A DNA stretch of 61,859 bases from an uncultured Oligoflexia bacterium (GTDB lineage: Bacteria; Bdellovibrionota; UBA1018; CAYHWW01), in contig CAYHWW010000003.1 of the NCBI GenBank assembly GCA_964360145.1, forward strand, positions 1 through 61,859. Reading direction: 5' to 3'. Position numbers and translations under genes: made by a program. Under the pieces are notes generated by a model. It did not search any database. It worked only from the letters and a program-made list of their open reading frames with translations, and was not told the origin of the DNA. This document shows, one piece after another, positions 22,356 to 61,859 of this stretch. The first letter of the stretch is position 1. Every line of letters begins with the position of its first letter.

Positions 22356-23147
22356 TTGACGAGGAGCACCGTGGACGCGCAATTCGCAATCCAAAAAATA
22401 CTCAACGAGCAGTTCGTGGAAGCGCGCTTGCGCAACCCCTCCTATTCGGTGAGGGCCTTCGCACGAAAGCTCGGCATGAGTTCCGCCGCGGTCTCCGAGA
22501 TCCTCAACGGAAAGCGTCGTATATCGCGGAAGCTCGCCCTCAGGATCGCGGATCGCCTGGCCCTCGATCCCGAGCAAACCAGGGCTCTTGTCGCTTCTTT
22601 CGAAGGTGCGCGGACGGAGATCAACACTCGTCCTCTCCAAAACTTGGACATGGAACACTTCCGTGTCGTCGCCGACTGGTATCACTTCGCAATCCTCTCT
22701 TTGGCTGAGACTGAGGGCTTCCGAGGCGAGGCGAAGTGGATCGCCCAGAGATTGGACCTCCCCGTTCGCGAGGTCGAGGCGGCGATCAAGCGACTTGAAA
22801 AACTTGAGATGCTCCTTCGCGATGGGCGAGGGAGACTTCGTGCTACCGGTGTGCAGTACGCCACGCCAGATGAGATCGCCAATGTCGCCCTGAGGCGCCT
22901 CCATGCTCAAAACCTAGAGCTGGCGCGGGTCTCGCTGGAGAGGGATCCCATCGACCAGCGCGACTTCTCGGCGGTGACCATGGCCATCGACCCCGCCAAG
23001 CTGCCGGAGGCGAAGAAACTCATCCGCAAGTTCCACAAACAGCTCAACCTCTTGCTGGGCAGCGGCCGCAAGAAGGACGTCTACAAAATGTGCCTCCAAC
23101 TGATTCCGCTCACACATACCGTAATCGAAAAAGGAGATAAGAAATGA
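22356..23147 (+). CDS. TIGR02147/DUF4423-family HTH protein, paralog 1
   Basis: The N-terminus NPSYSVRAFARKLGMSSAAVSEILNGKRRIS matches the family as I recall it. The start is either the TTG at 22356 or the GTG at 22371 after a GAGGAG. Confidence 0.65.
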   Translation: MTRSTVDAQFAIQKILNEQFVEARLRNPSYSVRAFARKLGMSSAAVSEILNGKRRISRKLALRIADRLALDPEQTRALVASFEGARTEINTRPLQNLDMEHFRVVADWYHFAILSLAETEGFRGEAKWIAQRLDLPVREVEAAIKRLEKLEMLLRDGRGRLRATGVQYATPDEIANVALRRLHAQNLELARVSLERDPIDQRDFSAVTMAIDPAKLPEAKKLIRKFHKQLNLLLGSGRKKDVYKMCLQLIPLTHTVIEKGDKK

Positions 23148-52417: not shown

Positions 52418-53578
52418 TCAGAACGGCTCTATGACCACGTATCTCTCGAGGGCAGCGCGGAGCGCGGTAGGGCACTGGGCGGCATCCTGGAACTGGAGAC
52501 GAAAAGGGTAGGCTGTATAAATGGGGACACTGGGGTTGGCGTTTAGGTTGTAATCTGCTGTCAGTGTCATGCTCGCCGGGTATCCCGGAGATAAAACAAA
52601 TTCATACCCTCCGTGTAAACCACCACTACAGGCAGTATTTACGATGGAATCGATTGTCCCGGCATCCATGGCGATGGAGCCAGGCAGCGTAAGGTTACCC
52701 ACTCGTATTAGCCGGTGCTCCCGCATCGCTTGGGGCGAATCGATCTCGTACCAGGCGAGATCAATCTTAGTGTAGGGCGTGTAGCCCCGCAGCATTGCTG
52801 GTGTGACAGCGGTGAGGGTCAAGATGTTAAAGGGGGTTGTCCCCGGCAGAGCTCTTTCTGTTTCAAAGTCATGGGAGAAGAGAAAACCAACGTAGGCGCG
52901 GGCCTCAGCGCTTGATTGATAGTGTTCCACCTCGGTCATTGCCGCCAGGCAATCCCGGCGGCCAGATCCTTCAGGAAGCCGGAAACATGCGACGTAACCC
53001 GGCAATCTGCGTTCGCGTTGGGAAAGCGGCATCAGGGCATAACTGACTTCGTGGAATATCAACGCTGCCCGGTGGGCCAGTGAAAGGCGATTCCAGTGCT
53101 CGCGGTGGATGCGGATGGCGCCATCGCGGCGAACCGCCAGTTGAACGGGGCGGCCCCCGGGGAACTCAATGACTGAGTCCTCGTCCTGAATATCCATGAG
53201 CCGCGGGGCAACAATCGCCCAGTGATAAGCACGGATCGCTTTCGCGTAGGTCAAGGCCAAGCCAGGACTGAAACTCTCGATTTCGCGTAGCTTGCCCACA
53301 ATTAAATCCACGGGGAAAACAGAGGGGTCCAAGGCTTGCGAAATGGAGTCCATCCATATTTGGCTGGGCGCACGGGGGGGGCGAACCCGAGGGCTGGACT
53401 CGACGCCTGCCTCGACTAAATCCAGGAGATACAAATGACCATTCATGATGATGCCATCACCACCATTGCCGGCACGGTCGTCAGCGGAGTGCGCCGCCGT
53501 GGGCACCACGGAGAGGGCCAACAAGAGGAGGGGTAGGATGAAAAAGCCACGAGATTCACTGACGGATTTTGTTTTCAT
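52418..53578 (-). CDS. secreted hypothetical protein (GNGG/HE motif family)
   Basis: Signal peptide FFILPLLLLALSVVPTAAHS followed by AGNGGDG. It overlaps the upstream TIGR02147-type gene by 23 nt. Confidence 0.6.
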   Translation of the reverse strand: MKTKSVSESRGFFILPLLLLALSVVPTAAHSADDRAGNGGDGIIMNGHLYLLDLVEAGVESSPRVRPPRAPSQIWMDSISQALDPSVFPVDLIVGKLREIESFSPGLALTYAKAIRAYHWAIVAPRLMDIQDEDSVIEFPGGRPVQLAVRRDGAIRIHREHWNRLSLAHRAALIFHEVSYALMPLSQRERRLPGYVACFRLPEGSGRRDCLAAMTEVEHYQSSAEARAYVGFLFSHDFETERALPGTTPFNILTLTAVTPAMLRGYTPYTKIDLAWYEIDSPQAMREHRLIRVGNLTLPGSIAMDAGTIDSIVNTACSGGLHGGYEFVLSPGYPASMTLTADYNLNANPSVPIYTAYPFRLQFQDAAQCPTALRAALERYVVIEPF

Positions 53579-54419
53579 GGGAGAGCTCCGGGTACTGCGT
53601 GAGTGGGAAAAGTTGGGTTTGGATCTGGTAGACCGCGTCGCCGGTCCCTGTTTCGCTGAACTGACGGACGAACTCGTCCTCCATCCTGCGAATGAAATCT
53701 TTCATCTGCGGTATCTTCGCCGTGGAGACGGCAAGCGTGATGCTTGAGATCTGGCGTTTCTCCACGGGCACGGTGCGAACTGCTTCTTGAGCCAAGGCTA
53801 AAGCACCCTCATGAAATCTCTTCAGGCCTTCCTGGCTGATGTCCTCCAGGGTCTGGATGCCCTTGCCCGCGGTGATTCGAAGTCGCTTTGTCTTCGGATC
53901 ACGTTCGAGCAGGTTGAGTTGGAGCATCGTATCCAGCGCACGGGCGATGTCCCTCGGGTTGACCTTGAAGCGGAGGCGCTGGGCGATCCACTGGGGGTCT
54001 TCAAGAAAGCCAGGCAAGCGCGTGAGTTGACGGATGGCGTAATACCACCAGTGTGAAATGGCTGAAAATGTCTTCACATCGAGCAAAATGAAGGGGCCAG
54101 TGGGGCGGCGTTTTTCAAGGCGTTCTTTGACCATCAGGGATAGCTCGGGGTCCCCCTTCACCTTGGAGAGGCGTACGAGATCTTCAAAGTAGGCCCGTTC
54201 TTTCACTCCGAAGCGAAAGTAACGGAGGAGCTTTTCAAGGATCTCGGGCCCGGCATCCCGTTGACCATGAATGATTTTCAGTAGAGACGTGTTGTTCTTC
54301 AGACCGAGTTTCTTGGCCCATGCCTGGTAGCTCCAAGAGGGATTCCGCTTCTTGGCATCCTCAAAGTGAGTCACGAGATAGGAGCGGTAGTCGACATGGC
54401 TGAAAACTGTATTCTTCAC
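53556..54419 (-). CDS. TIGR02147/DUF4423-family HTH protein, paralog 2
   Basis: YRSYLVTHFEDAKKRNPSWSYQAWAKKLGLKNNTSLLKIIHGQR has the same architecture as the protein at 22356-23147. GTG start. Confidence 0.65.
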   Translation of the reverse strand: MKNTVFSHVDYRSYLVTHFEDAKKRNPSWSYQAWAKKLGLKNNTSLLKIIHGQRDAGPEILEKLLRYFRFGVKERAYFEDLVRLSKVKGDPELSLMVKERLEKRRPTGPFILLDVKTFSAISHWWYYAIRQLTRLPGFLEDPQWIAQRLRFKVNPRDIARALDTMLQLNLLERDPKTKRLRITAGKGIQTLEDISQEGLKRFHEGALALAQEAVRTVPVEKRQISSITLAVSTAKIPQMKDFIRRMEDEFVRQFSETGTGDAVYQIQTQLFPLTQYPELSHENKIRQ

Positions 54420-54562
54420 GCCATGATGGAATAGGCGTAGTCCACAGGCATTTCAAGATTTAATGCAGGCAGATTGCCATATTCGCAGGCAATAGTGCCT
54501 GTGACGGGCCGCGCCGAAGAGTTTCATGGCACTTTCCTGGGCTCCTGGTTACTCTCAGGATC

Positions 54563-55972
54563 ATGGCGACGCATGAAAAAACCCATGGGAATGAAGTCTC
54601 TTGCCGCCCGCTACAGAGCATATTCCAGTTTCTGAGAGACCGCCAGATTCCAGCAGAGGCCGTGTTCGGCGGCGCTTCCTACGCCATCGATTACATGAGG
54701 AACCCGAACAATCGCATCAGCTGGAGCGAGCTGGTGAAGTGCCTCGCCCGCCTCTCTGATGTCTCCGGTGGGCAATCCGGGCTTGAGGCCGTGGGCGAGC
54801 TGTCGCCAGGTTCCATGGAATTCACTCAGCTCAATAAACTGCTTGGTTTTTTCGCGGATAGCCGCCTTGGCTATTGGGGGCTCATGAAACTGATGCCCTC
54901 ATTTTTCCGAAATGTCCGTTTCCAATTCATCGATTCTGGTTCGCGAAGAATTCGCATCATTATGGAGATTCCAGAGGAGTATGAGGATTGTCCGGCCTTC
55001 TTCATGATTTGGGTGGGGGGGTTGAGAAGCACTCCCCGGGTTTATGCTCAACCCAACTCCGTGGTTCATCTGGCGATCACCGAGCGTAAAGGCGTATTTG
55101 ACATTGTTCTACCGCCTTCAGCCACGATCTTTTCCCGGATCCGGCGAGCGCTGCGGGTGCTATTCGCGGCCCGGGCCGTCATTGAAGAGATTTCCAGCCA
55201 GGATCGCGCCATTCGTCAGACGCAACAAGCCCTTGTTGATTCTCAGATGAACCTCCAGCTTGCAACGCAGATGTCCGCACTTTCGAAACTGGCGGCATTG
55301 GGCGACATGGCAGGCGGCGTAGCCCATGAAATCAACAACCCACTGACGATTATTGGGCTCACTGCCGCCAATGCTCGGGAAAAGCTCAAGGATGAGAGCG
55401 TAAGCCGACAAGCCATCGCCGATCAGTTGGCCCTCATTGAGCGCACCGTGGAGCGCATGGCGAGAATAGTGTCATCAATGAGGGCCTTTGCCCGGGACGC
55501 TGAAAATGACCCCTTCACTTTCGTGCCGGTGCGGACAATTATCGAGGACACGCTCAATCTTTGTCGCGAGAAATTCAAGAGCCGGGGGGTGGACCTTCAA
55601 ATCCGTCCTATCGATGCCGATCTCACGTTGGAGTGCCGCTCGACTCAGATCTCTCAAGTGCTCCTGAATCTCTTGAGCAATGCCCTGGACGCCGCCAGCA
55701 CTTCATCCGAAAAATGGGTACGCATCGAGATCACCGAAGTAGGAACGTATATTCGTTTCGCTGTCATCGATAGCGGTTCAGGGGTGCCGCCAGCGGCGAG
55801 AGCCAGGATTTTTGAACCATTCTTTTCGTTGAAGCCTGTTGATAAAGGCACGGGCCTAGGCCTCAGCACGGCGGTGGGCGTGGTCTCTAGCCACAGGGGA
55901 ACCCTCACCCTGGATCCCGCCACGCCCCACACATGTTTTGTGGCATTGATCCCACAAAAGCGCGTAGCGTAG
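54563..55972 (+). CDS. histidine kinase (cytoplasmic sensor region, HisKA + HATPase_c)
   Basis: H-box MAGGVAHEINNPLTII and N/G boxes (NLLSNALDA, DSGSGV, GTGLGLS). No adjacent cognate regulator. Confidence 0.8.
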   Translation: MATHEKTHGNEVSCRPLQSIFQFLRDRQIPAEAVFGGASYAIDYMRNPNNRISWSELVKCLARLSDVSGGQSGLEAVGELSPGSMEFTQLNKLLGFFADSRLGYWGLMKLMPSFFRNVRFQFIDSGSRRIRIIMEIPEEYEDCPAFFMIWVGGLRSTPRVYAQPNSVVHLAITERKGVFDIVLPPSATIFSRIRRALRVLFAARAVIEEISSQDRAIRQTQQALVDSQMNLQLATQMSALSKLAALGDMAGGVAHEINNPLTIIGLTAANAREKLKDESVSRQAIADQLALIERTVERMARIVSSMRAFARDAENDPFTFVPVRTIIEDTLNLCREKFKSRGVDLQIRPIDADLTLECRSTQISQVLLNLLSNALDAASTSSEKWVRIEITEVGTYIRFAVIDSGSGVPPAARARIFEPFFSLKPVDKGTGLGLSTAVGVVSSHRGTLTLDPATPHTCFVALIPQKRVA

Positions 55973-55989
55973 AAAATGGAAGATACAGC

Positions 55990-56433
55990 TCACGACGCTC
56001 TGCTCTTTTTAGCGCAACTCGAACAGTGTCCGTAGAAGATAATTGATAGATTAGCCTTTGAGAAGCCATGGATGTCTTTAAGTGCCGCATCGATCTTCTC
56101 GAACAGCGCTTTATTGCCGCGATTGAGTTTCCCGCAGGATTTACAGATGAAGTAGTCATGGACCCTGCGGTCGAAGATGTATTGAAACCGTTTACCGACG
56201 CTTGGTAGATTCAGTTCTTGGATGAGATCGAGCCTCTTGAATGCTTCGAGATTCCGGTAAATGCTCGAACGATCAACCCCGGGCATGTGCTTTTCCATGA
56301 AAACATGGATTTCCTTGAGAGAGATCTGCTTCGTGCTGTTGTCGAGCACATATTGGAGCATGAGCTTGCGGGCCGGAGTGATGCGCATCTCGTTCGACCT
56401 AAGCACGGCGAGGAGGTCTTTGTGTTTCTTCAT
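55990..56433 (-). CDS. Fur-family transcriptional regulator
   Basis: N-terminal wHTH (MRITPARKLMLQYV) and two CxxC pairs (CKSCGK, CSSCAK). Confidence 0.8.
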   Translation of the reverse strand: MKKHKDLLAVLRSNEMRITPARKLMLQYVLDNSTKQISLKEIHVFMEKHMPGVDRSSIYRNLEAFKRLDLIQELNLPSVGKRFQYIFDRRVHDYFICKSCGKLNRGNKALFEKIDAALKDIHGFSKANLSIIFYGHCSSCAKKSRAS

Positions 56434-56521
56434 AAAGTACCCGGCGTAAGCTAGCGGACTTGCTTCGTTGGGTCAGTATAAATATTGGGGATGGCGTTTA
56501 CATCATTACAGGTATAGTCAC

Positions 56522-57208
56522 TCAATCCTTCACCCAGAGCTCGAGTTTATCTGATGCGATGGGTTCACTCCGGACCAAAGTGTAACCGGGCGGCATATCA
56601 CCACCAAAGCCATGATATGTGACAACTCGAGTGTCTTTTCGGGCGCGAAAGAGCTTCCGCTGAACGATGCGGATATATTTTTCATAGAAAAACCATGTGT
56701 TCGAGACACCCTGATCTATTTTGAATCGGTCCCCGTAAAGATTCTCTACAAATGGATTGAAGAGGTAAAAACCATCGAAGTGCGCCCAGTCCATGTCCAT
56801 CATGTTCCCGTGAACGAAGGAAGCGTCTTCAATCTTGTGGCGAATGGCAAGGTCGCGGCACATCGCAACGAGGTAGTCACGCTGTTCGACCCCTGTGAAA
56901 ACGCCTTCCGTGGTCAATGCGCCCACTAGACAGAATTTTCCTGCACCTGAGCCAACATCAAGAATGCGCGCACCGTCATGAGTCACGAGCAGCTCGGCGG
57001 CTCTTCTAGCAACACGCACGGGCGTCCAGTGCATCTCTGAGAGCCTGTAAATGGGATCTGGGTAGATCTGGTCGAACCTTTTGTCCGAGACTCTCTGCTT
57101 CGCGCGGAGCTTCTTGATGCAATCAAGAGGGTCCGCGATGTGGGGGCTGGATGGGGGCTCGATCACGCCCAGTGACTGATGAGCACTGACGTCCTGTTTG
57201 CAGCTCAT
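56522..57208 (-). CDS. class I SAM-dependent methyltransferase
   Basis: Motif I ILDVGSGAGKFCL. The ATG at 57208 is preferred to the upstream non-ATG start at 57250. Confidence 0.7.
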   Translation of the reverse strand: MSCKQDVSAHQSLGVIEPPSSPHIADPLDCIKKLRAKQRVSDKRFDQIYPDPIYRLSEMHWTPVRVARRAAELLVTHDGARILDVGSGAGKFCLVGALTTEGVFTGVEQRDYLVAMCRDLAIRHKIEDASFVHGNMMDMDWAHFDGFYLFNPFVENLYGDRFKIDQGVSNTWFFYEKYIRIVQRKLFRARKDTRVVTYHGFGGDMPPGYTLVRSEPIASDKLELWVKD

Positions 57209-57262
57209 ACCCCCATCGTAAACCTCTAATGCAACAAGGTGCAATAGCAAACGTCGAGCGTA

Positions 57263-57379
57263 TTAGAACTCGCGTTGCGCCGCGGGGCGTCCCTCTTTGT
57301 GGGATTCGTTATAGAGGTGAATGAGGGCCAGCATAGTCATAAGCAGCACTAACCAGTAGACTTGCTGTCTTCTTTTCAA
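57263..57379 (-). CDS. possible 38-aa single-TM peptide translationally coupled to the DUF1275 gene
   Basis: The TTG start overlaps the DUF1275 stop (TTGA). Sequence (M)KRRQQVYWLVLLMTMLALIHLYNESHKEGRPAAQREF. It is below the ORF-track size cutoff, and no SD is visible. Confidence 0.25.
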   Translation of the reverse strand: MKRRQQVYWLVLLMTMLALIHLYNESHKEGRPAAQREF

Positions 57380-58116
57380 TGACGTCTCCTAAGCCTTGCG
57401 AGGCGTCTTCGTGGACCGAGTGCTTCATAAATAGAATAAGCTGATAATGTCGCTGGCAGCAGGAACCCGAGATAGTGAAACTTCAGATAAAAATAGGACC
57501 CAATCAGGGAACCCATGATGAAGGCTGAGATCGTGCCCATGCGAAGACGGACTGCTTGCATCTCCATGCGAAAGACCGCGGGGTTTGAAAAGGCCCTCAC
57601 AAGCCCCGTGCCGAGGTCGGTGGTCACGCCGGTCAGGTGCGTCGTTCGAACCGTCGCCCCTGATGACGTCGATATCGCCGCGTTCTGAAGACCGCTTGCG
57701 GCGCAGAGCAGCGCAAGAAGCATATAGTCTTTGCTGAGGCGGGGCTCACTCCCAAAGCTGCCAAAGAGATCGAAGTGGCCACCCAGGGCAGCCCCCAGGA
57801 GGCAAAGGCACACAAGACTCATGACAAGCGCGTAATGGGGGCGTTGTCCGCGATGAACCCGCCGGTCCACAAGGTACGCTGAAACCATGACGCCCAGCAG
57901 AAAGAATAATGGAAGTGAGACAATCCCCGCCGCCTGATCCCACTGGCCTTTCGTGGCGTCAGCAGCGAAAAGCGTAGCAAAGCCAGTCACGTGACTCACA
58001 AAGCGGTGGGCACTTAAAAAACCCCCCGCATTCACGCAACCTGCAATGAAGCTTAGTAAAAACCACTGAAAGTGGGTTCTCCAAGATCTTGCTTTATTGA
58101 ATTGGTGTCGAAACAT
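57376..58116 (-). CDS. DUF1275/YoaK-family membrane protein
   Basis: LLSFIAGCVNAGGFLSAHRFVSHVTG is the family-typical first helices. About six TM segments. Confidence 0.7.
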   Translation of the reverse strand: MFRHQFNKARSWRTHFQWFLLSFIAGCVNAGGFLSAHRFVSHVTGFATLFAADATKGQWDQAAGIVSLPLFFLLGVMVSAYLVDRRVHRGQRPHYALVMSLVCLCLLGAALGGHFDLFGSFGSEPRLSKDYMLLALLCAASGLQNAAISTSSGATVRTTHLTGVTTDLGTGLVRAFSNPAVFRMEMQAVRLRMGTISAFIMGSLIGSYFYLKFHYLGFLLPATLSAYSIYEALGPRRRLARLRRRH

Positions 58117-58217
58117 GACTGCTTACCAGCGTACGACAAACATCGGGTGTTTGTATTCAGGAATGACAGATCTCAGCTGGCGCGTTTATGGTATCAACGT
58201 AGTTTCAATCTCATCCC

Positions 58218-58976
58218 TCAGCGCCGCGAATACGGCTCGCAGTGATTGATACCGTCCTGCCACTCAGATACGCCTACCGATGGCAGGCTCTCGGGGCTGC
58301 GGTAAAGGAACGGCGAGCAGATAAAGTCGCCCGCAGCCGACCACAGTCTTTGCTGAGTGCGCTCGTAGCCTTCGGCAACGCGCACAAAGGGCACGCGCTC
58401 ATTGTAGGCATAGACTTCGCCAGTGCTGAGATCTAAACCATAGGCATGGCCGCCAGGCGGCAGGGGCTCATCGCGCAGGTAATCCCTCAGCACGACAGCA
58501 ACACCGGCGACGGCGATGGCGTGCTCGATGTCTTCCATATTGTGCTGGGCCCAATCGCGCGATGAGCCAGCCGTTGGCCACTCACCGCCCAGGATGGTTG
58601 CTTGCAGTCGCCTGAGTGGGATGTTGCGAGCTGTGAACTCTTGTAACACGCGGGGGAATGATTCTGAAGGCGATGTGGGCCCATCGGTATGTGCGAGTAC
58701 GCCCGTGTGGGTTTGCAGATCGAAGAACGTGACGACCACGCAAGGCGCCACCCCCGCGGTTTGCACGCGCGCGTGGTGGGCGAGATCTGTGATGAGGTAC
58801 TCGCGCTGGAAAACTTGGGGCGTTTCGCCATCGTCGTTGTCGAGGGTGCGCAGCTGCAACGACGGTGTAGGGCCGGGTAATGTCAACGCCCCCACAGGGC
58901 CGGGGCTACTCTCCCCCTGTTGCGCAAAGGCTGTGACGGCGAAAATCAGGGGAGTCAGCGCGCTCAGTGTGTGCAT
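58218..58976 (-). CDS. secreted CheD-like (glutamine deamidase fold) protein
   Basis: Signal peptide MHTLSALTPLIFAVTAFA. The blocks VQTAGVAPCVVVTFFD...TGVLAHTDGP, ATILGGE and GGHAYGLDLSTGEVY are colinear with CheD blocks LGSCVAV..D...GMAHVMLP, AKIAGG and GNRARSVEYNIETGK, aligned from memory. Confidence 0.45.
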   Translation of the reverse strand: MHTLSALTPLIFAVTAFAQQGESSPGPVGALTLPGPTPSLQLRTLDNDDGETPQVFQREYLITDLAHHARVQTAGVAPCVVVTFFDLQTHTGVLAHTDGPTSPSESFPRVLQEFTARNIPLRRLQATILGGEWPTAGSSRDWAQHNMEDIEHAIAVAGVAVVLRDYLRDEPLPPGGHAYGLDLSTGEVYAYNERVPFVRVAEGYERTQQRLWSAAGDFICSPFLYRSPESLPSVGVSEWQDGINHCEPYSRR

Positions 58977-59069
58977 AAACGGTGGGGAGTTTAATTTATA
59001 GTACAATTTTAGTCAAGTAACATGAATTATCTCACCTTGAATCATTACGGTCCCTAGGTCAAAAAACGA

Positions 59070-59097
59070 TAGACATACTATTTTAGTATGGTATAAT
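59070..59097 (+). promoter_or_regulatory. sigma-70 promoter with extended -10
   Basis: TAGACA (59070-59075), a 16-bp spacer, then TGgTATAAT (59089-59097), in an AT-rich spacer. Confidence 0.5.
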
Positions 59098-59127
59098 CCG
59101 CCACGTCTGATCTATGGAGGCCTTGTT

Positions 59128-59193
59128 ATGAAGAAGTATTTTTCAATGATCTTGGGGATTGCCGCCGCAATACTTGGCCGTAAGTCTAATTGA
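59128..59193 (+). CDS. possible 21-aa hydrophobic peptide
   Basis: GGAGG lies 7 nt upstream of the ATG. Sequence MKKYFSMILGIAAAILGRKSN. It sits directly downstream of the strong promoter and upstream of the gene at 59215. Confidence 0.3.
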   Translation: MKKYFSMILGIAAAILGRKSN

Positions 59194-59214
59194 TAAACCC
59201 TAAGGAATTTTAGT

Positions 59215-59850
59215 ATGAAACGTTACACATACCTATTGTTGCTATTGTCTGCAGTATCTGTCGCACTTCCCACACTTTCTCATGCGCAGTCAGCAGTTCA
59301 GCAAATACGCCTTGAAATTCCCCGGGCATTCCTAGCCCCATACAATCGTCCCAATGATATTCGTGATATTTACTTTGGTCTATGGTTCCAGTACGGATTG
59401 TTGACTACTGGCGGCACGCAGTTCGGCCCCACACCACAAGGGATCGACACAGCCAGGTCCTACTGTCAGGTTGTTATTTATAACGATCTCTTAGTGGCAC
59501 TCGAACCTCGTCGACCAACCGACCGCAGGCAGTGTGTGCCTGTTAAAGCTCAGTCTGCTGACCTGCGTTTTACTCAGTCAGCGGTCGGCCCGAATGGCTT
59601 TGACCTTACGTATGCCAATATGATTCCTCATCAGTTTAGCGATGGAGAAATCCTATCGATTCGATGCATTGGAAGCAACACCGCAGATGACTCAGGCCGT
59701 ATCCTGATCCCGTCGATGGACACACTAATAGCCCAACACATACCTTCTTCTACCCTTCGTATAGTTGGCGTAACACCTGTTGCTGCGTCATCCGACACCA
59801 CAGCCGGTGCTTCCCCAGCGGCACCTGTATCCGGCTCAGACGCAGAGTAG
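59215..59850 (+). CDS. hypothetical secreted protein
   Basis: Signal peptide MKRYTYLLLLLSAVSVALPTLSHA. GC is lower than the backbone. I recognised no domain. Confidence 0.6.
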   Translation: MKRYTYLLLLLSAVSVALPTLSHAQSAVQQIRLEIPRAFLAPYNRPNDIRDIYFGLWFQYGLLTTGGTQFGPTPQGIDTARSYCQVVIYNDLLVALEPRRPTDRRQCVPVKAQSADLRFTQSAVGPNGFDLTYANMIPHQFSDGEILSIRCIGSNTADDSGRILIPSMDTLIAQHIPSSTLRIVGVTPVAASSDTTAGASPAAPVSGSDAE

Positions 59851-59866
59851 TCCGTGAATCCTAACC

Positions 59867-59900
59867 AAGACCCCCAGGTCTGCGAAGACCTGGGGGTCTT
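59867..59900 (+). terminator. Rho-independent terminator
   Basis: AAGACCCCCAGGTCT-gcga-AGACCTGGGGGTCTT, a perfect 15-bp stem, followed by ATTTTCC. Confidence 0.75.
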
Positions 59901-59912
59901 ATTTTCCACCAC

Positions 59913-60092
59913 TCAAAACTCATCTTTTTTAGGAATACGACCAAAGGCAATGCGCGTGGGCGCAGCCTCTTGAGCTTCGTGCACTCCCGCGTAGTACAGA
60001 GTGCCGCCGCCATAGCGATCATTCACCCGATCGATGGCCCGGGCTAAGTACTCGCGCTTGGGGTTATCAAAAAGAGAGAACTGATGATCGGT
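59913..60092 (-). pseudogene. 3'-terminal remnant of a Y-family DNA polymerase (DinB/UmuC-like) gene
   Basis: The 59-codon open frame has no start codon: TDHQFSLFDNPKREYLARAIDRVNDRYGGGTLYYAGVHEAQEAAPTRIAFGRIPKKDEF*. The block SLFD...L..A.D.v..rYG..t is the usual Y-family C-terminal block as I recall it. The frame is closed upstream by a TAG at 60093-60095, exactly where the TAGCCAA array begins. Confidence 0.4.
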
Positions 60093-60100
60093 CTATCTCG

Positions 60101-60128
60101 TAGCCAAAAAATAGCCAAAAATAGCCAA
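60101..60128 (+). repeat. TAGCCAA direct-repeat array 1 (3 units, 11- and 10-bp spacing)
   Basis: TAGCCAAAAAATAGCCAAAAATAGCCAA, with units at 60101, 60112 and 60122. The A-tracts are phased with the helical repeat. Confidence 0.75.
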
Positions 60129-60301
60129 CTCGCGTAACGCCGAGTCTTTTCGGGTCACGTGAGCGCTGTGAACTGGACCGCAACTCATTGAAAACTCTTG
60201 TTTTTGATTTTGCGGACTTAGGCACTTTTCGGTGCCGACTGACTTCGGAAAATGGTTGGCTCGATCCCTAGCTTCAGAAATCGGACACTTAGTCGGATTT
60301 G

Positions 60302-60318
60302 TAGCCAAAAGTAGCCAA
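60302..60318 (+). repeat. TAGCCAA direct-repeat array 2 (2 units, 10-bp spacing)
   Basis: gTAGCCAAAAgTAGCCAAgc, immediately outside the 3' end of the GNAT gene. Confidence 0.7.
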
Positions 60319-60327
60319 GCACTGCCC

Positions 60328-60990
60328 TTAGGTTGAAAGTCGGGTCAAAACTTCCGACTCGCCGATCTTGCCCGCCCGAAACAAGGCCGCTTTTCTTCGG
60401 AGCGGGTCATGATGATAGATCACTCGAACTAGAGTTCCCATGACCTCGTCCTGCTCGAATCCGTTAATCGTAAAGCCGAGCTTCAGTTTGGCGATTAGAA
60501 CGGCGTTATTGGTGCAGATGTGACGCGAACGAATGGCGCTAAAGCCCTCTTGCTGGGAGAGTTCCAGTAGCTTCCGAACGATCGTGGAATAAAAACCCCG
60601 GCGACGGTGATCCGGTAGAACAAGTGAGCCAGCCATGTAGAAATCTCCGGTGTGCACGGAGTCTTGCCATCCGTAGCTCCAGCCCACCATCTTCCCTTCG
60701 TGCATGAGCGCTAGATTCAAGCGAACGCGCTCCTTGATCCTCGATTGGAGGCGTTCCATCTTGGATCTCTGCTCGTCAGAGAGTTGAGCCCTCCAGGGGA
60801 GGACCGGATACCCCTGGAGAAGATGCTCATTGAACTGGGCTAGATAGAGATCTTCAGGATACCGATTTACCCGAGCAATGGAGTACCCATTTTCAAGTTG
60901 CCAGAGTCCTTGAATTTCAAACCCAGATTCACCGTATAGATTCTCGCTCGATCCCAGTTCCGTATTCCCCATAAGTGCTACTCTACCCAT
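60328..60990 (-). CDS. GNAT-family N-acetyltransferase
   Basis: Acetyl-CoA motif A LVLPDHRRRGFYSTIVRKLLELSQQEG. Alternative starts lie at 61029 (GTG) and 60972. Confidence 0.7.
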   Translation of the reverse strand: MGRVALMGNTELGSSENLYGESGFEIQGLWQLENGYSIARVNRYPEDLYLAQFNEHLLQGYPVLPWRAQLSDEQRSKMERLQSRIKERVRLNLALMHEGKMVGWSYGWQDSVHTGDFYMAGSLVLPDHRRRGFYSTIVRKLLELSQQEGFSAIRSRHICTNNAVLIAKLKLGFTINGFEQDEVMGTLVRVIYHHDPLRRKAALFRAGKIGESEVLTRLST

Positions 60991-61107
60991 TTCGCCGGTC
61001 TTTGTCCGTATTCTATGATTTGCTGCCACGTTTCTTTTCGATTCGGCGACGGACGTGGGTGGTACCGACCAGTACCACCCCTGGTCGCTTTGTGGTGCCT
61101 TGCTAAA

Positions 61108-61123
61108 ATAACCAAATGGTTAT
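61108..61123 (+). promoter_or_regulatory. palindromic operator-like site upstream of the toxin-antitoxin pair
   Basis: ATAACCA-aa-TGGTTAT overlaps a TATAAA -10-like hexamer, 12 nt before the toxin start. Confidence 0.4.
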
Positions 61124-61134
61124 AAACTATTACG

Positions 61135-61467
61135 GTGAAAATCGAATTCCACCGATCCCGCTCTGGTCGTAGCTACTTTGAAGATTTCCTCGATGATCTA
61201 CACAAGGCGGATCAGTCGGCGATCTTGGCCGTTTTCGCTGACATTCGGGAACATGGATTCAATGCGCTAGGATGTCAGTTCCGCCAGATCGATGGGAAGC
61301 TTTGGGAGATCAAGATTCGAACAAACGGCGGCGGTTGGCGATTCTTCTATGTGACGTTAGCGGCAGATGTGATCCACGTCTTGCATTCGTACAAGAAGCA
61401 AGGCCAGAAAGCTCCGCCGCGAGAAATCGAAGTAGCGCGTAAGCGAATGAAGGAGACTTTAGAATGA
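61135..61467 (+). CDS. RelE/ParE-superfamily toxin, Gp49/HigB-like
   Basis: 110 aa with LWEIKIRTNGGGWRFFYVTLAADVIHVLHSYKKQGQKAPPREIEVA, typical of Gp49-like (PF05973) toxins. It overlaps the antitoxin gene by 4 nt. Confidence 0.7.
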   Translation: MKIEFHRSRSGRSYFEDFLDDLHKADQSAILAVFADIREHGFNALGCQFRQIDGKLWEIKIRTNGGGWRFFYVTLAADVIHVLHSYKKQGQKAPPREIEVARKRMKETLE

Positions 61468-61790
61468 AAACGAAAAAGACGAACGGTGTAGCTCTCGAAA
61501 CGATCTTGGAGCGGCGTCTGCAAGATCAGGAAATTCGCTTTGGCTTCGATCAGCGTCGATTCTATCTCCAGATCGCTCGCTTAGTTGCAGACCTCCGGGC
61601 GAAAGCCGGACTCTCGCAAGCGGAGCTGGCCAAGGCCGCCTCCGTCAGCCAGCCCCTGATTGCTCGTCTGGAAAAAGGCGATCAACGCCGTACCCCTACC
61701 TTCGACATGGTGTTCAAGGTGTTGAAAGCCCTCGGGTACCGAATGGAGATTCTGGCTTTACCAGAGAAGCGCCGTCGCGCAGCGGCTTGA
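61464..61790 (+). CDS. XRE-family HTH antitoxin (HigA-like)
   Basis: HTH segment LRAKAGLSQAELAKAASVSQPLIARLEKG, immediately downstream of the toxin gene. Confidence 0.75.
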   Translation: MKTKKTNGVALETILERRLQDQEIRFGFDQRRFYLQIARLVADLRAKAGLSQAELAKAASVSQPLIARLEKGDQRRTPTFDMVFKVLKALGYRMEILALPEKRRRAAA

Positions 61791-61834
61791 GTCGCTCAGT
61801 GCCTGAGCACGGATGCTCGGGGCAGCGATTCGAG

Positions 61835-61859
61835 TAGCCAAGCGGTAGCCAAAAAATAG
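61835..61859 (+). repeat. TAGCCAA direct-repeat array 3 (at least 3 units, cut by window end)
   Basis: TAGCCAAgcggTAGCCAAAAAATAG, with units at 61835, 61846 and 61857. The orientation is the same as arrays 1 and 2. Confidence 0.7.

What the first reader, a model, noticed from the sequence alone, without database searches (positions are those of the whole stretch)
60101..61859. Phased TAGCCAA repeat arrays bracketing a recombinase-less GNAT plus HigBA-like cargo
Three clusters of direct TAGCCAA(A) units, all in the same orientation and spaced 10-11 bp apart, occur in this region. They have 3 units at 60101-60128, 2 units at 60302-60318, and at least 3 units at 61835-61859 where the window ends. 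The string TAGCCAAAAAATAG is shared by the first and last clusters, and GTAGCCAAGC by the second and third. Cluster 1 abuts the truncated polymerase gene. Clusters 1 and 2 enclose about 170 bp of non-coding DNA with several small hairpins. Clusters 2 and 3 enclose a GNAT acetyltransferase (minus strand) and a Gp49/HigB-like toxin with an XRE antitoxin (plus strand, with its own ATAACCA-aa-TGGTTAT operator). Helically phased A-tract repeats imply bent DNA and cooperative protein binding. That pattern is seen at recombinase or transposase arm sites, plasmid iterons and partition sites. The cargo (a TA pair and a GNAT) is typical of integron cassettes and genomic islands, yet no integrase or transposase gene is visible in the window. 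This looks like the left part of an unrecognised mobile or cassette-like element.
Basis: partly seen in the sequence, partly recalled or inferred. Interest (0 to 1): 0.65.

Follow-up and report, generated by a model that had tools for sequence, protein, structure and literature searches.

The report
Integrase-less cassette at tRNA-Val att sites
The TAGCCAA repeats are most likely the protein-binding arms of recombination (att) sites flanking a small toxin-antitoxin cassette inserted at the end of a tRNA-Val gene, and the same strictly spaced site design recurs beside many tRNA genes in predatory Bdellovibrio-like bacteria.

Summary
Seven of the ten TAGCCAA heptamers in the window lie on the + strand in its last 1.76 kb, spaced 10-11 bp apart.

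Clusters 1 and 3 are the left ends of a ~165-bp direct repeat, here called the module. It holds 3x TAGCCAA, 3x CGnGTnAY, an IHF-like site, a hairpin and an 18-bp copy of the tRNA-Val(GAC) 3' end. The contig ends inside copy 2, which is an assembly break. Two sibling contigs continue 1.2 kb to the intact tRNA-Val.

Cluster 2 lies 49 bp beyond the first tRNA-end copy. The GNAT + HigB/XRE segment (1,735 bp) is therefore bounded like an integrated element: core, P' arm (2 sites), cargo, P arm (3 sites), core.

The geometry (-152/-141/-131 and +49/+59 from the tRNA CCA end) is identical in elements at tRNA-His, Gly and Ser. About 33 loci, nearly all named ones from Bdellovibrionota, place the module 150-153 nt from more than 11 different tRNA or tmRNA genes.

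A viral contig shows the same design next to a tyrosine integrase. No integrase is present in the window or in the four delimited cassettes. Public assemblies show a circle or tandem junction, and variants with and without the cassette.

Best reading: an integrase-less (CIME-like) cassette in a tandem array, mobilised in trans. The enzyme is not identified.

The parts
59913..60092 (-). 59-codon C-terminal remnant of a UmuC-like Y-family polymerase gene, cut off 8 bp before the first TAGCCAA. Probably the remains of an older element ('cassette 0').
   Evidence: Translation. Sub-threshold DUF4113 hit, E=3e-4. In other strains the remnant is cut at 60050 or lost from 59865 and joined to an IS-like end.
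60101..60128 (+). Module copy 1, motif A: 3x TAGCCAA at -152/-141/-131 from the tRNA-end copy. Candidate arm-type integrase sites (P arm).
   Evidence: The same positions occur in about 30 related loci.
60131..60158 (+). Module copy 1, motif B: CGCGTAAC, CGAGTCTT and CGGGTCAC at exact 10-bp phasing. Candidate accessory-factor (excisionase-like) sites.
   Evidence: Read directly. The family consensus GTnAY x3 occupies the same columns.
60181..60193 (-). IHF-like site (TTTCAATGAGTTG on the minus strand, against the consensus WATCAANNNNTTR).
   Evidence: A relaxed form of this consensus sits at position +81/82 in 13 of 27 modules.
60221..60236 (.). Hairpin GGCAC-TTTTCG-GTGCC. It stands where many family members carry a hairpin just 3' of the tRNA end; in L044 that hairpin is followed by a T-run like a terminator.
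   Evidence: Comparable hairpins are visible in L044, L060, L074, L094, L186 and L024.
60247..60264 (+). Core 1: GGAAAATGGTTGGCTCGA, made of 6 nt plus a copy of the last 12 nt (including CCA) of tRNA-Val(GAC). This is the left recombination junction of cassette 1.
   Evidence: Three copies in register: window 60247, L001 1792 and L001 2852 at the real tRNA.
60302..60318 (+). P' arm of cassette 1: 2x TAGCCAA at +49/+59 from the core TGG.
   Evidence: The same +49/+59(60) spacing occurs in L365 (His), L007 (Gly) and L117 (Ser).
60328..61029 (-). GNAT acetyltransferase (cargo). The gene callers used a 214-aa version, 60328-60972.
   Evidence: PF00583, E=2.4e-7. Gene call.
61108..61123 (.). Palindrome ATAACCAAATGGTTAT, 12 nt upstream of the toxin start codon. 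Likely operator of the TA operon.
   Evidence: Read directly. Its function is inferred.
61135..61467 (+). HigB/Gp49-like toxin (cargo).
   Evidence: PF05973, E=1e-17.
61464..61790 (+). XRE/HigA-like antitoxin. It overlaps the toxin gene by 4 nt.
   Evidence: PF01381, E=1e-13.
61805..61818 (.). Small hairpin GAGCA-CGGA-TGCTC, starting the ~30 bp that precede module copy 2. Position 61805 is also where an IS-like end is joined in other strains.
61835..61859 (+). Module copy 2, motif A (third unit cut by the contig end). This is the P arm of cassette 1. It continues in L001 to core 2 (GGAAAATGGTTGGC) 153 bp from the first unit.

Best explanation
The region is the distal part of a tandem array of small integrated elements at the 3' end of tRNA-Val(GAC). 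The tRNA gene lies on the minus strand, 1.2 kb beyond the window end.

Map on the + strand:
- UmuC-like remnant;
- module 1, then core 1;
- cassette 1: P' arm with 2x TAGCCAA, GNAT, HigB-like toxin, XRE antitoxin, then module 2;
- core 2;
- cassette 2: a second TA-like pair with no TAGCCAA arms;
- core 3, then the tRNA-Val body.

A module is the P arm of an attP-type site. It holds three TAGCCAA arm-type sites, three phased CGnGTnAY sites, an IHF-like bend site and a hairpin just 3' of the tRNA-end copy. It ends in the sequence that rebuilds the tRNA 3' end.

Proposed mechanism (inferred, not shown). A heterobivalent tyrosine integrase supplied in trans binds TAGCCAA with its N-terminal arm domain and binds the tRNA-derived core with its catalytic domains. 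IHF and a factor bound to motif B would shape a ~218-bp intasome. Recombination between core 1 and core 2 would excise cassette 1 as a 1,735-bp circle carrying a complete attP, which can re-integrate at the tRNA end or at a resident att site.

Cassette 1 encodes no recombinase. It is therefore a CIME-like or satellite cassette whose toxin-antitoxin pair may stabilise it or act in defence.
For: Shown:
- The ~150-bp modules differ by 1 substitution and 1 A-run indel, and the tRNA 3' end is present three times in register. tRNA-Val(GAC) is at L001 2858-2932.
- A sites lie at -152/-141/-131 and +49/+59 from the CCA-end TGG in four independent elements with different tRNA cores: Val, His, Gly and Ser.
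- About 24 GTDB loci, nearly all Bdellovibrionota MAGs, plus about 9 metagenome loci carry the same module. It sits 150-153 nt from the 3' end of Gly, Leu, His, Cys, Glu, Arg, Ser, Ala or Val tRNAs or tmRNA. tRNA 3' fragments are seen at junctions in L044, L048, L073 and L074.
- An IHF-like site sits at a fixed +81/82, and motif B is conserved in phase.
- Viral contig L150 has 3xA + 3xB + a tRNA fragment + 2xA running into the stop codon of a 347-aa tyrosine integrase. Its 45-49% homologues are prophage integrases at tRNA ends with the same two-motif design.
- Five other viral or metagenome contigs have TAGCCAA x3 within 50 nt of an integrase 3' end. One of these integrases has an Arm-DNA-bind_4 domain.
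- Mobility signals. A Logan contig in run X5 joins XRE end + module to core 1 + P' arm, which is a circle or tandem junction. IS-tagged variants exist with cassette 1 (L002) and without it (X7).
Against: - No integrase was found in the window, in any of the four delimited cassettes, or in up to 7 kb to the left of about 30 modules. The enzyme is therefore hypothetical for this lineage.
- Relatives of the L150 integrase at 30-35% identity do not use TAGCCAA (1 of 79), so the integrase link rests on a few TAGCCAA-selected cases.
- Motif B is present in both arms in L365 and L117, unlike lambda Xis sites.
- One arm motif used at more than 11 different cores would need either many integrases sharing an arm domain or an unusually tolerant core recognition.
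- The circle or tandem junction and the presence/absence variants could also arise by RecA recombination between the 165-bp repeats.
- Cassette 2 has no arms.
- The taxon of the window is inferred, not shown.
Confidence: 0.65

Rival explanations
1. Fossil att sites. The array was built by integrases in the past, but the cassettes are no longer mobilised site-specifically. Present-day gain, loss or duplication of the 1,735-bp cassette would occur only by homologous recombination between the 165-bp direct repeats.
For: No integrase is found nearby. There are signs of decay: a truncated UmuC-like gene, IS insertions and armless cassette 2. The repeats are long enough for RecA, and the X5 and X7 variants are equally explained this way.
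Against: The two modules are almost identical. All arm sites, the spacing and the IHF-like site are intact. The exact geometry is kept in four integrase-less cassettes from distant lineages, which argues for continuing selection on the sites.
Confidence: 0.15
2. The phased repeats are sites for a different machinery that targets tRNA ends, not a tyrosine integrase. One candidate is the conserved wHTH + PD-(D/E)xK-like protein with a TraG/VirD4-like ATPase that sits next to such modules at tRNA-His and tRNA-Cys. A transposase is another possibility.
For: The pair lies 250-300 bp from a 3+3 repeat module beside the tRNA in four of the five genomes examined: L358, L359, L362 and L363. L360 has a different repeat layout and no intact tRNA. 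The ATPase has more than 400 homologues. No integrase appears in 12 kb of those islands.
Against: The pair is absent from the window and from all four small cassettes. Identity between the wHTH proteins does not track motif A: L358 and L097 both use TAGCCAA yet are 27% identical. Duplicated tRNA 3' ends of 8-20 bp and sites on both sides of the core are the signature of integrase recombination. There are no terminal inverted repeats or short target duplications.
Confidence: 0.1
3. Iterons, an origin, or a partition site of an integrated plasmid-like replicon.
For: There are 3+3 helically phased direct repeats next to a T-rich stretch. In L365 a module lies just downstream of a ParA gene and an HTH Rep-like gene.
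Against: There is no rep or par gene in the window or in the small cassettes. The distance to tRNA ends is fixed, and a second set of the same sites lies 49 bp across the core. The paralogous ParA/Rep-like locus L366 has no module.
Confidence: 0.05
4. Integron-type gene cassettes, or chance low-complexity sequence.
For: The cargo type (TA, GNAT), small promoter-poor cassettes and the array form resemble integron cassettes.
Against: There is no attC-like imperfect palindrome, no attI and no IntI. The junctions are tRNA ends. The chance reading is excluded by the statistics and by conservation.
Confidence: 0.02

Closest known systems
CIMEs (cis-mobilizable elements) and tandem accretion at tRNA genes, e.g. 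ICESt1/ICESt3-related elements of Streptococcus (reviewed in PMC5704250)
   Same: An element keeps attL and attR but lacks integration and transfer genes. It sits in tandem with other elements at the 3' end of a target gene, and new elements enter the att site that contains the gene end.
   Different: These cassettes are only 1.2-2.7 kb and recur as such in several lineages. No partner ICE or IME is seen next to them. Descent from a larger element by deletion is not shown.
Lambda-type (heterobivalent) tyrosine-integrase attP sites
   Same: Direct-repeat arm sites lie on both sides of a core, about 150 bp on one side and 50 bp on the other. A second set of phased sites sits beside the P-arm sites. 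There is an IHF-like site between arm and core, and the total size is ~220-240 bp.
   Different: Motif B can occur in both arms. The same arm motif serves more than 11 different tRNA cores. The integrase for this lineage is unidentified.
Tycheposons of Prochlorococcus (bioRxiv 10.1101/2020.12.28.424599)
   Same: tRNA-targeting elements flanked by partial tRNAs. Successive integrations push older ones outward, leaving degenerate remnants, and populations are heterogeneous with tandem-repeat junctions.
   Different: Tycheposons are defined by their own large tyrosine recombinase and replication module. Here none is present, and no sequence relationship was tested.
Integron gene cassettes
   Same: Small, mostly promoter-less units, often toxin-antitoxin genes, stacked in an array and dependent on a recombinase encoded elsewhere.
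   Different: The recombination site is a bipartite ~218-bp attP-like site built around a tRNA 3' end, not a folded attC. There is no IntI or attI.
HigBA (Gp49/RelE-fold toxin with XRE antitoxin) type II toxin-antitoxin modules
   Same: The domain pair, the 4-nt gene overlap and a palindrome upstream.
   Different: Nothing unusual; activity not tested.

Membership tests
Element integrated by site-specific recombination at a tRNA gene | Direct repeats of the tRNA 3' end at both borders, with an intact tRNA at one end | tested here: met
   GGAAAATGGTTGGC(TCGA) is present three times in register. tRNA-Val(GAC) is intact at L001 2858-2932.
Element integrated by site-specific recombination at a tRNA gene | An integrase gene inside the element | tested here: not met
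   Pfam on the main ORFs of the window and an iterative integrase HMM on all its ORFs of 120 aa or more give no recombinase. Sibling contigs L001 and L002 show none.
Element integrated by site-specific recombination at a tRNA gene | Excised circular form or empty site with the junction in the core | tested here: inconclusive
   The X5 contig joins 61697-61851 to 60117-60348. With and without variants exist. Only assembled contigs were available, and homologous recombination is not excluded.
Heterobivalent-integrase attP | Arm-type repeats on both sides of the core at fixed distances, plus a bend site | tested here: met
   -152/-141/-131 and +49/+59 in four elements. IHF-like site at +81/82.
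Heterobivalent-integrase attP | Integrase N-terminal domain binds the arm repeats | not testable with these tools
   Adjacency only: L150, L131, L137, L143, L156 and L187.
CIME (cis-mobilizable element) | attL and attR retained, integration and transfer genes absent | tested here: met
   Definition taken from PMC5704250.
CIME (cis-mobilizable element) | Derived from an ICE or IME by deletion, and mobilised in cis by an element integrated in tandem | not tested
   No ICE or IME partner is seen in the 65 kb available.
Integron cassette | attC site (imperfect inverted repeats R''-L''/L'-R') at the cassette end, and an IntI/attI platform | tested here: not met
   The cassette ends are direct repeats, not palindromes. 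No tyrosine recombinase is present.
Plasmid iterons / oriV | Iterons next to a cognate rep gene, with a DnaA box and an AT-rich unwinding element | tested here: not met
   There is no rep gene in the window. The repeats are tied to tRNA ends. DnaA boxes were not searched.
Tn7-like / CAST tRNA-targeting transposons | Terminal inverted repeats with multiple transposase sites at both ends, a 5-bp target duplication, and tnsB/tnsC genes | tested here: not met
   All sites are in one orientation. The duplications are 14-18 bp tRNA ends. No transposase is present.
HigBA-type type II toxin-antitoxin | Gp49/HigB-family toxin gene followed by an HTH antitoxin gene | tested here: met
   PF05973, E=1e-17, and PF01381, E=1e-13, with a 4-nt overlap.

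The most novel reading that the evidence does not exclude
Bdellovibrionota may carry a cassette system anchored at tRNA genes that is analogous to integrons in function but not in structure. The cassettes are 1-3 kb and integrase-less, and the three whose genes could be identified carry toxin-antitoxin or abortive-infection genes. Each has a complete ~218-bp bipartite attP with a universal arm motif, a lineage-specific second motif and a fixed -152/+49 geometry. They would be inserted, excised and stacked at many different tRNA or tmRNA 3' ends by a recombinase encoded elsewhere in the genome or on a visiting phage. That recombinase would have to read one arm code yet accept many cores, or it could be an unrecognised machinery such as the wHTH-nuclease/TraG-like pair.
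Probability: 0.3. Interest if true: 0.75.

Novelty: new variant of a known kind. Interest (0 to 1): 0.6.

Why it matters
It gives a concrete, sequence-defined recombination site for a phylum of predatory bacteria whose mobile elements are barely described. My two literature searches on Bdellovibrio islands and on these heptamers found nothing on it.

The site is easy to search for. It marks the borders of defence and toxin-antitoxin islands at tRNA genes and explains why assemblies break there.

Strictly conserved geometry, one arm motif serving many tRNA targets, and repeated integrase-less mini-cassettes together pose a testable question. What recombinase services them, and how does it combine a fixed arm code with variable cores?

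If the enzyme is found, the ~218-bp site and its partner would be a compact integration tool for Bdellovibrio-like organisms.

Tried and rejected
1. Integron or attC reading. Rejected: the borders are direct repeats ending in a tRNA 3' end, and the Rfam E-value scan of L001/L002 found only the tRNA.

2. Conserved neighbour gene to the left of the modules. All-against-all BLAST of ORFs from 26 loci found none. An iterative integrase HMM found no integrase beside any Bdellovibrionota module except unrelated ones in L107, L073 and L070.

3. Whether relatives of the L150 integrase generally have TAGCCAA arms. They do not at 30-35% identity (1 of 79). At 45-49% they share the design but use other or related motifs.

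4. Walking out from larger elements to find the integrase, using the TraG-like and Rep-like proteins. No integrase and no distal tRNA fragment appeared within 10-12 kb. This instead revealed that motif A itself varies between elements.

5. wHTH-nuclease protein as the TAGCCAA binder. Not supported, because identity does not track the motif.

6. Literature search for TAGCCAA/TTGGCTA arm sites and for Bdellovibrio tRNA islands. Nothing specific was found.

7. Taxon of the window from cluster names or DnaE comparison. Uninformative. Bdellovibrionota is inferred from the module family and two DUF4423 paralogues.

8. Most of the more than 270 TAGCCAA-triplet hits in the public collections are plain tandem repeats in unrelated taxa and were set aside.

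Only Logan contigs, not raw reads, were available.
Full report
**Observation**

TAGCCAA occurs ten times in the window. Seven copies are on the + strand in the last 1.76 kb: 60101/60112/60122, 60302/60312 and 61835/61846, with an eighth cut at 61857. Shuffles give 4.0 hits per window on both strands, so about 0.06 are expected here; the clustering is not chance. The spacing is 10-11 bp.

The palindrome ATAACCAAATGGTTAT lies at 61108-61123. The 'truncated polymerase' is a 59-codon minus-strand remnant at 59913-60092 with only a sub-threshold DUF4113 match. From my own knowledge, DUF4113 is the C-terminal domain of UmuC-type polymerases.

**What lies beyond the window**

The window is a whole 61,859-bp contig. 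An exact look-up of the XRE protein returned two groundwater contigs, L001 and L002. They are identical to the window where they overlap and run past its end.

Aligning them shows that clusters 1 and 3 are the left ends of a ~165-bp direct repeat, here called the module. It contains:
- three TAGCCAA units (motif A);
- three phased CGnGTnAY units (motif B, 60131-60158);
- an IHF-like site (60181-60193);
- a hairpin (60221-60236);
- GGAAAATGGTTGGC(TCGA).

That last string occurs a third time at L001 2852-2869. There its final 12 nt are the 3' end, CCA included, of a tRNA-Val(GAC) gene on the minus strand (ARAGORN, Rfam, repeats). The contig therefore stops because the assembler could not cross the repeat.

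**Map**

On the + strand:
- ordinary chromosome: GlnRS, RecQ, QueA, GuaB, GuaA, DnaE, sensor kinases, Fur and two DUF4423 genes;
- UmuC-like remnant;
- module 1, then core 1 (60247-60264);
- 2x TAGCCAA (60302-60318), GNAT, HigB-like, XRE, then module 2;
- core 2;
- a 1.05-kb segment with a 98-aa ORF overlapping a 146-aa HTH gene and no TAGCCAA sites;
- core 3, then the tRNA-Val body;
- a metallophosphoesterase gene.

The GNAT + HigBA segment is thus a 1,735-bp unit bounded by two tRNA-end copies. It has two A sites just inside its left border and three A sites about 150 bp inside its right border. If excised through the cores, it would carry a complete attP-like site of about 218 bp.

**Relatives**

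Many hits are plain tandem repeats in unrelated taxa. About 24 loci share the whole architecture, and nearly all of them are Bdellovibrionota MAGs (Bdellovibrio, Pseudobdellovibrionaceae, Bacteriovoracia).

In most of those with an intact tRNA, the first TAGCCAA lies 150-153 nt from the 3' end of a tRNA gene on the opposite strand. The tRNAs are Gly-TCC, Leu-TAA, Leu-CAA, His, Cys, Glu, Arg-CCT, Ser-GGA and Ala-TGC. The module at Asp (L094) lies 172 nt away and one His locus (L093) 215 nt away. Metagenome contigs add Val-CAC and Gly-GCC at 150 nt and tmRNA at 150-160 nt, with one tmRNA locus at 377 nt.

Some loci end in a tRNA fragment instead of a tRNA (L044, L048, L073, L074). The crossover therefore lies in the first 8-20 nt of the tRNA 3' end.

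A column-wise consensus keeps the three heptamers, a GTnAY core of motif B at 10-bp phasing, a TAAG..TTGAAA (IHF-like) block and a T-rich stretch. The spacers, including the window's A-tracts, are not conserved. Motif B follows host lineage, not tRNA identity.

**Geometry**

Four elements could be delimited on both sides:
- the window cassette (Val, 1.73 kb);
- L365 (His, 2.2 kb, BrnT/CopG-type antitoxin plus two ORFs);
- L007 (Gly, 1.2 kb, one ORF);
- L117 (Ser, 2.7 kb, an AbiE-like pair plus one ORF).

In all four the A sites are at -152/-141/-131 (one at -151/-140/-129) and at +49/+59(60) relative to the TGG that complements the tRNA CCA end. None of the four encodes an integrase. Such strict spacing across different cores points to a defined nucleoprotein complex.

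**Link to integrases**

An IMG/VR contig (L150) carries the following in this order:
- 3x TAGCCAA;
- three units of a second motif;
- an IHF-like site;
- a 31-nt tRNA 3' fragment;
- 48 nt;
- 2x TAGCCA, running into the stop codon of a 347-aa tyrosine integrase.

Phage genes lie on both sides, so this is an intact attP-int region.

Its homologues at 45-49% identity are prophage integrases at tRNA ends with the same two-motif layout but other or related motifs: TGCAGTT/GGCCGAT in L370 and ATGGCCAAC in L368. Relatives at 30-35% identity do not use TAGCCAA.

Five further viral or metagenome contigs have TAGCCAA x3 within 50 nt of the 3' end of an integrase, in the same relative orientation. One of these integrases has an Arm-DNA-bind_4 domain. 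These cases were found by searching for TAGCCAA, so they show compatibility, not proof.

**Larger elements**

Modules at tRNA-His and tRNA-Cys are often followed by a conserved gene pair and then by variable defence genes (AbiE, McrBC-like, SNF2/PLD, GAPS4). The pair is a ~260-aa protein with an apparent wHTH and PD-(D/E)xK motif, and a TraG/VirD4-like ATPase with more than 400 homologues.

Their modules keep the layout but use other motif pairs: TAGACTA/GCGACC, CCCACC/GTTAT and AGCACA/GTCCCT. TAGCCAA is therefore one variant of motif A.

No integrase and no distal tRNA fragment appeared within 10-12 kb. Identity between the pair proteins does not track motif A. The recombinase for this lineage remains unidentified. 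This is the main gap.

**Population evidence**

Logan contigs from groundwater runs show several forms:
- An IS-like element with 25-bp inverted ends, TGAGCTTGACCCGGTT(C/T)(A/C)GTGGACA. It is joined at 59865 or 60050 on the left and at 61805 on the right.
- An IS-tagged form with cassette 1 (L002) and one without it (X7, depth 12). They differ by exactly the cassette.
- In run X5, a 387-nt contig running from the XRE end through the module into core 1 and the P' arm (61697-61851, then 60117-60348). This is the junction expected of a circle or of a tandem duplicate.

These forms show recent gain, loss or duplication at the repeats. Assembled contigs cannot tell site-specific from homologous recombination.

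**Interpretation**

The best-supported reading is a tandem array at tRNA-Val in which the GNAT + HigBA unit is an integrase-less, CIME-like cassette (definition from PMC5704250). Its TAGCCAA clusters would be the P' and P arm sites of a heterobivalent integrase acting in trans. Cluster 1 would be the surviving P arm of an older, decayed neighbour.

The situation resembles tandem accretion and tycheposon islands. It differs in three ways: the cassettes are very small and recurrently integrase-less, one arm motif serves many tRNA targets, and the geometry is fixed.

Steps shown: the repeats, the tRNA-end duplications, the geometry, the family distribution, the absence of a recombinase and the polymorphism. 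Steps inferred: who binds motifs A and B, IHF use, the site-specific nature of present-day movement, and the taxon.

**Verdict**

It belongs to a known kind of system, a site-specific integrative element with tandem accretion, and represents an undescribed variant of it. Interest is moderate to high.

Noticed in passing
Junctions at window 59865, 60050 and 61805; L002 1-55; L004 1123-1175: In other strains of the same groundwater population, an IS-like element with ~25-bp inverted ends, TGAGCTTGACCCGGTT(C/T)(A/C)GTGGACA, is joined to the UmuC-like remnant at two different left positions and to one fixed right position just before module 2. This suggests IS-mediated adjacent deletions. Its interior was not seen.
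   Followed up: partly
L358-L363 (genes at ~9.2-11.3 kb of each locus); L031, L097: A conserved gene pair sits beside a 3+3-repeat module at tRNA-His or tRNA-Cys and is followed by variable defence genes. The pair is a ~260-aa protein with an apparent wHTH and PD-(D/E)xK motif and no Pfam hit, plus a TraG/VirD4-like ATPase with more than 400 homologues at E<=1e-20; the best 120 listed are 61-100% identical. No integrase appears within 12 kb.
   Followed up: partly
L001 1806-2851 (1.05 kb beyond the window end): The tRNA-proximal 'cassette 2' is bounded by tRNA-end copies but has no TAGCCAA or motif-B sites. It encodes a 98-aa ORF (DUF4258 only at E=0.08) overlapping a 146-aa HTH protein. It may use another recombinase or be older.
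   Followed up: partly
X1 and X7 loose ends at window 60100: A module-1-type copy (4 mismatches in 45 nt in X7) is preceded by a different left flank (...GGAGGTTAAGAGCGGAGGGAAGCGCTACAG). So another array or strain variant exists in the same samples.
   Followed up: no
L125, L127, L128, L133, L145, L147, L154, L155, L173, L181, L190: Small AT-rich marine viral or metagenome contigs carry TAGCCAA x3 directly followed by several phased TTCAATC-type repeats. This is a similar two-motif layout in an unrelated setting.
   Followed up: no
L015, L059, L080, L106, L113, L122, L172, L203, L206, L248: Prevotella/Bacteroidaceae and rumen contigs share TAGCCAAGGTG arrays followed by a conserved ~80-nt sequence (…ATTACCTTGGGAAG…GGGTATGGGTAGAGCGAAGG). 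This is a separate repeat family.
   Followed up: no
L160, L183, L238: Four TAGCCAA(A/G)TG units lie about 160 nt downstream of a 415-aa integrase gene on the same strand and 209 nt from a tRNA-Thr(GGT) 3' end. This is another integrase/tRNA context for the heptamer.
   Followed up: no
window 22356-23147 and 53556-54419; window 54000-61859: There are two DUF4423 paralogues in the window. G+C falls from about 0.60 to 0.52-0.54 over the last ~8 kb before the array, across genes of unknown function with signal-peptide-like N-termini. The variable region may therefore extend left of the UmuC-like remnant.
   Followed up: no
window 59867-59900: A perfect 15-bp inverted repeat (AAGACCCCCAGGTCT/AGACCTGGGGGTCTT) lies after the 211-aa ORF. 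It is a terminator-like hairpin, and one strain-variant junction (59865) lies at its edge.
   Followed up: no
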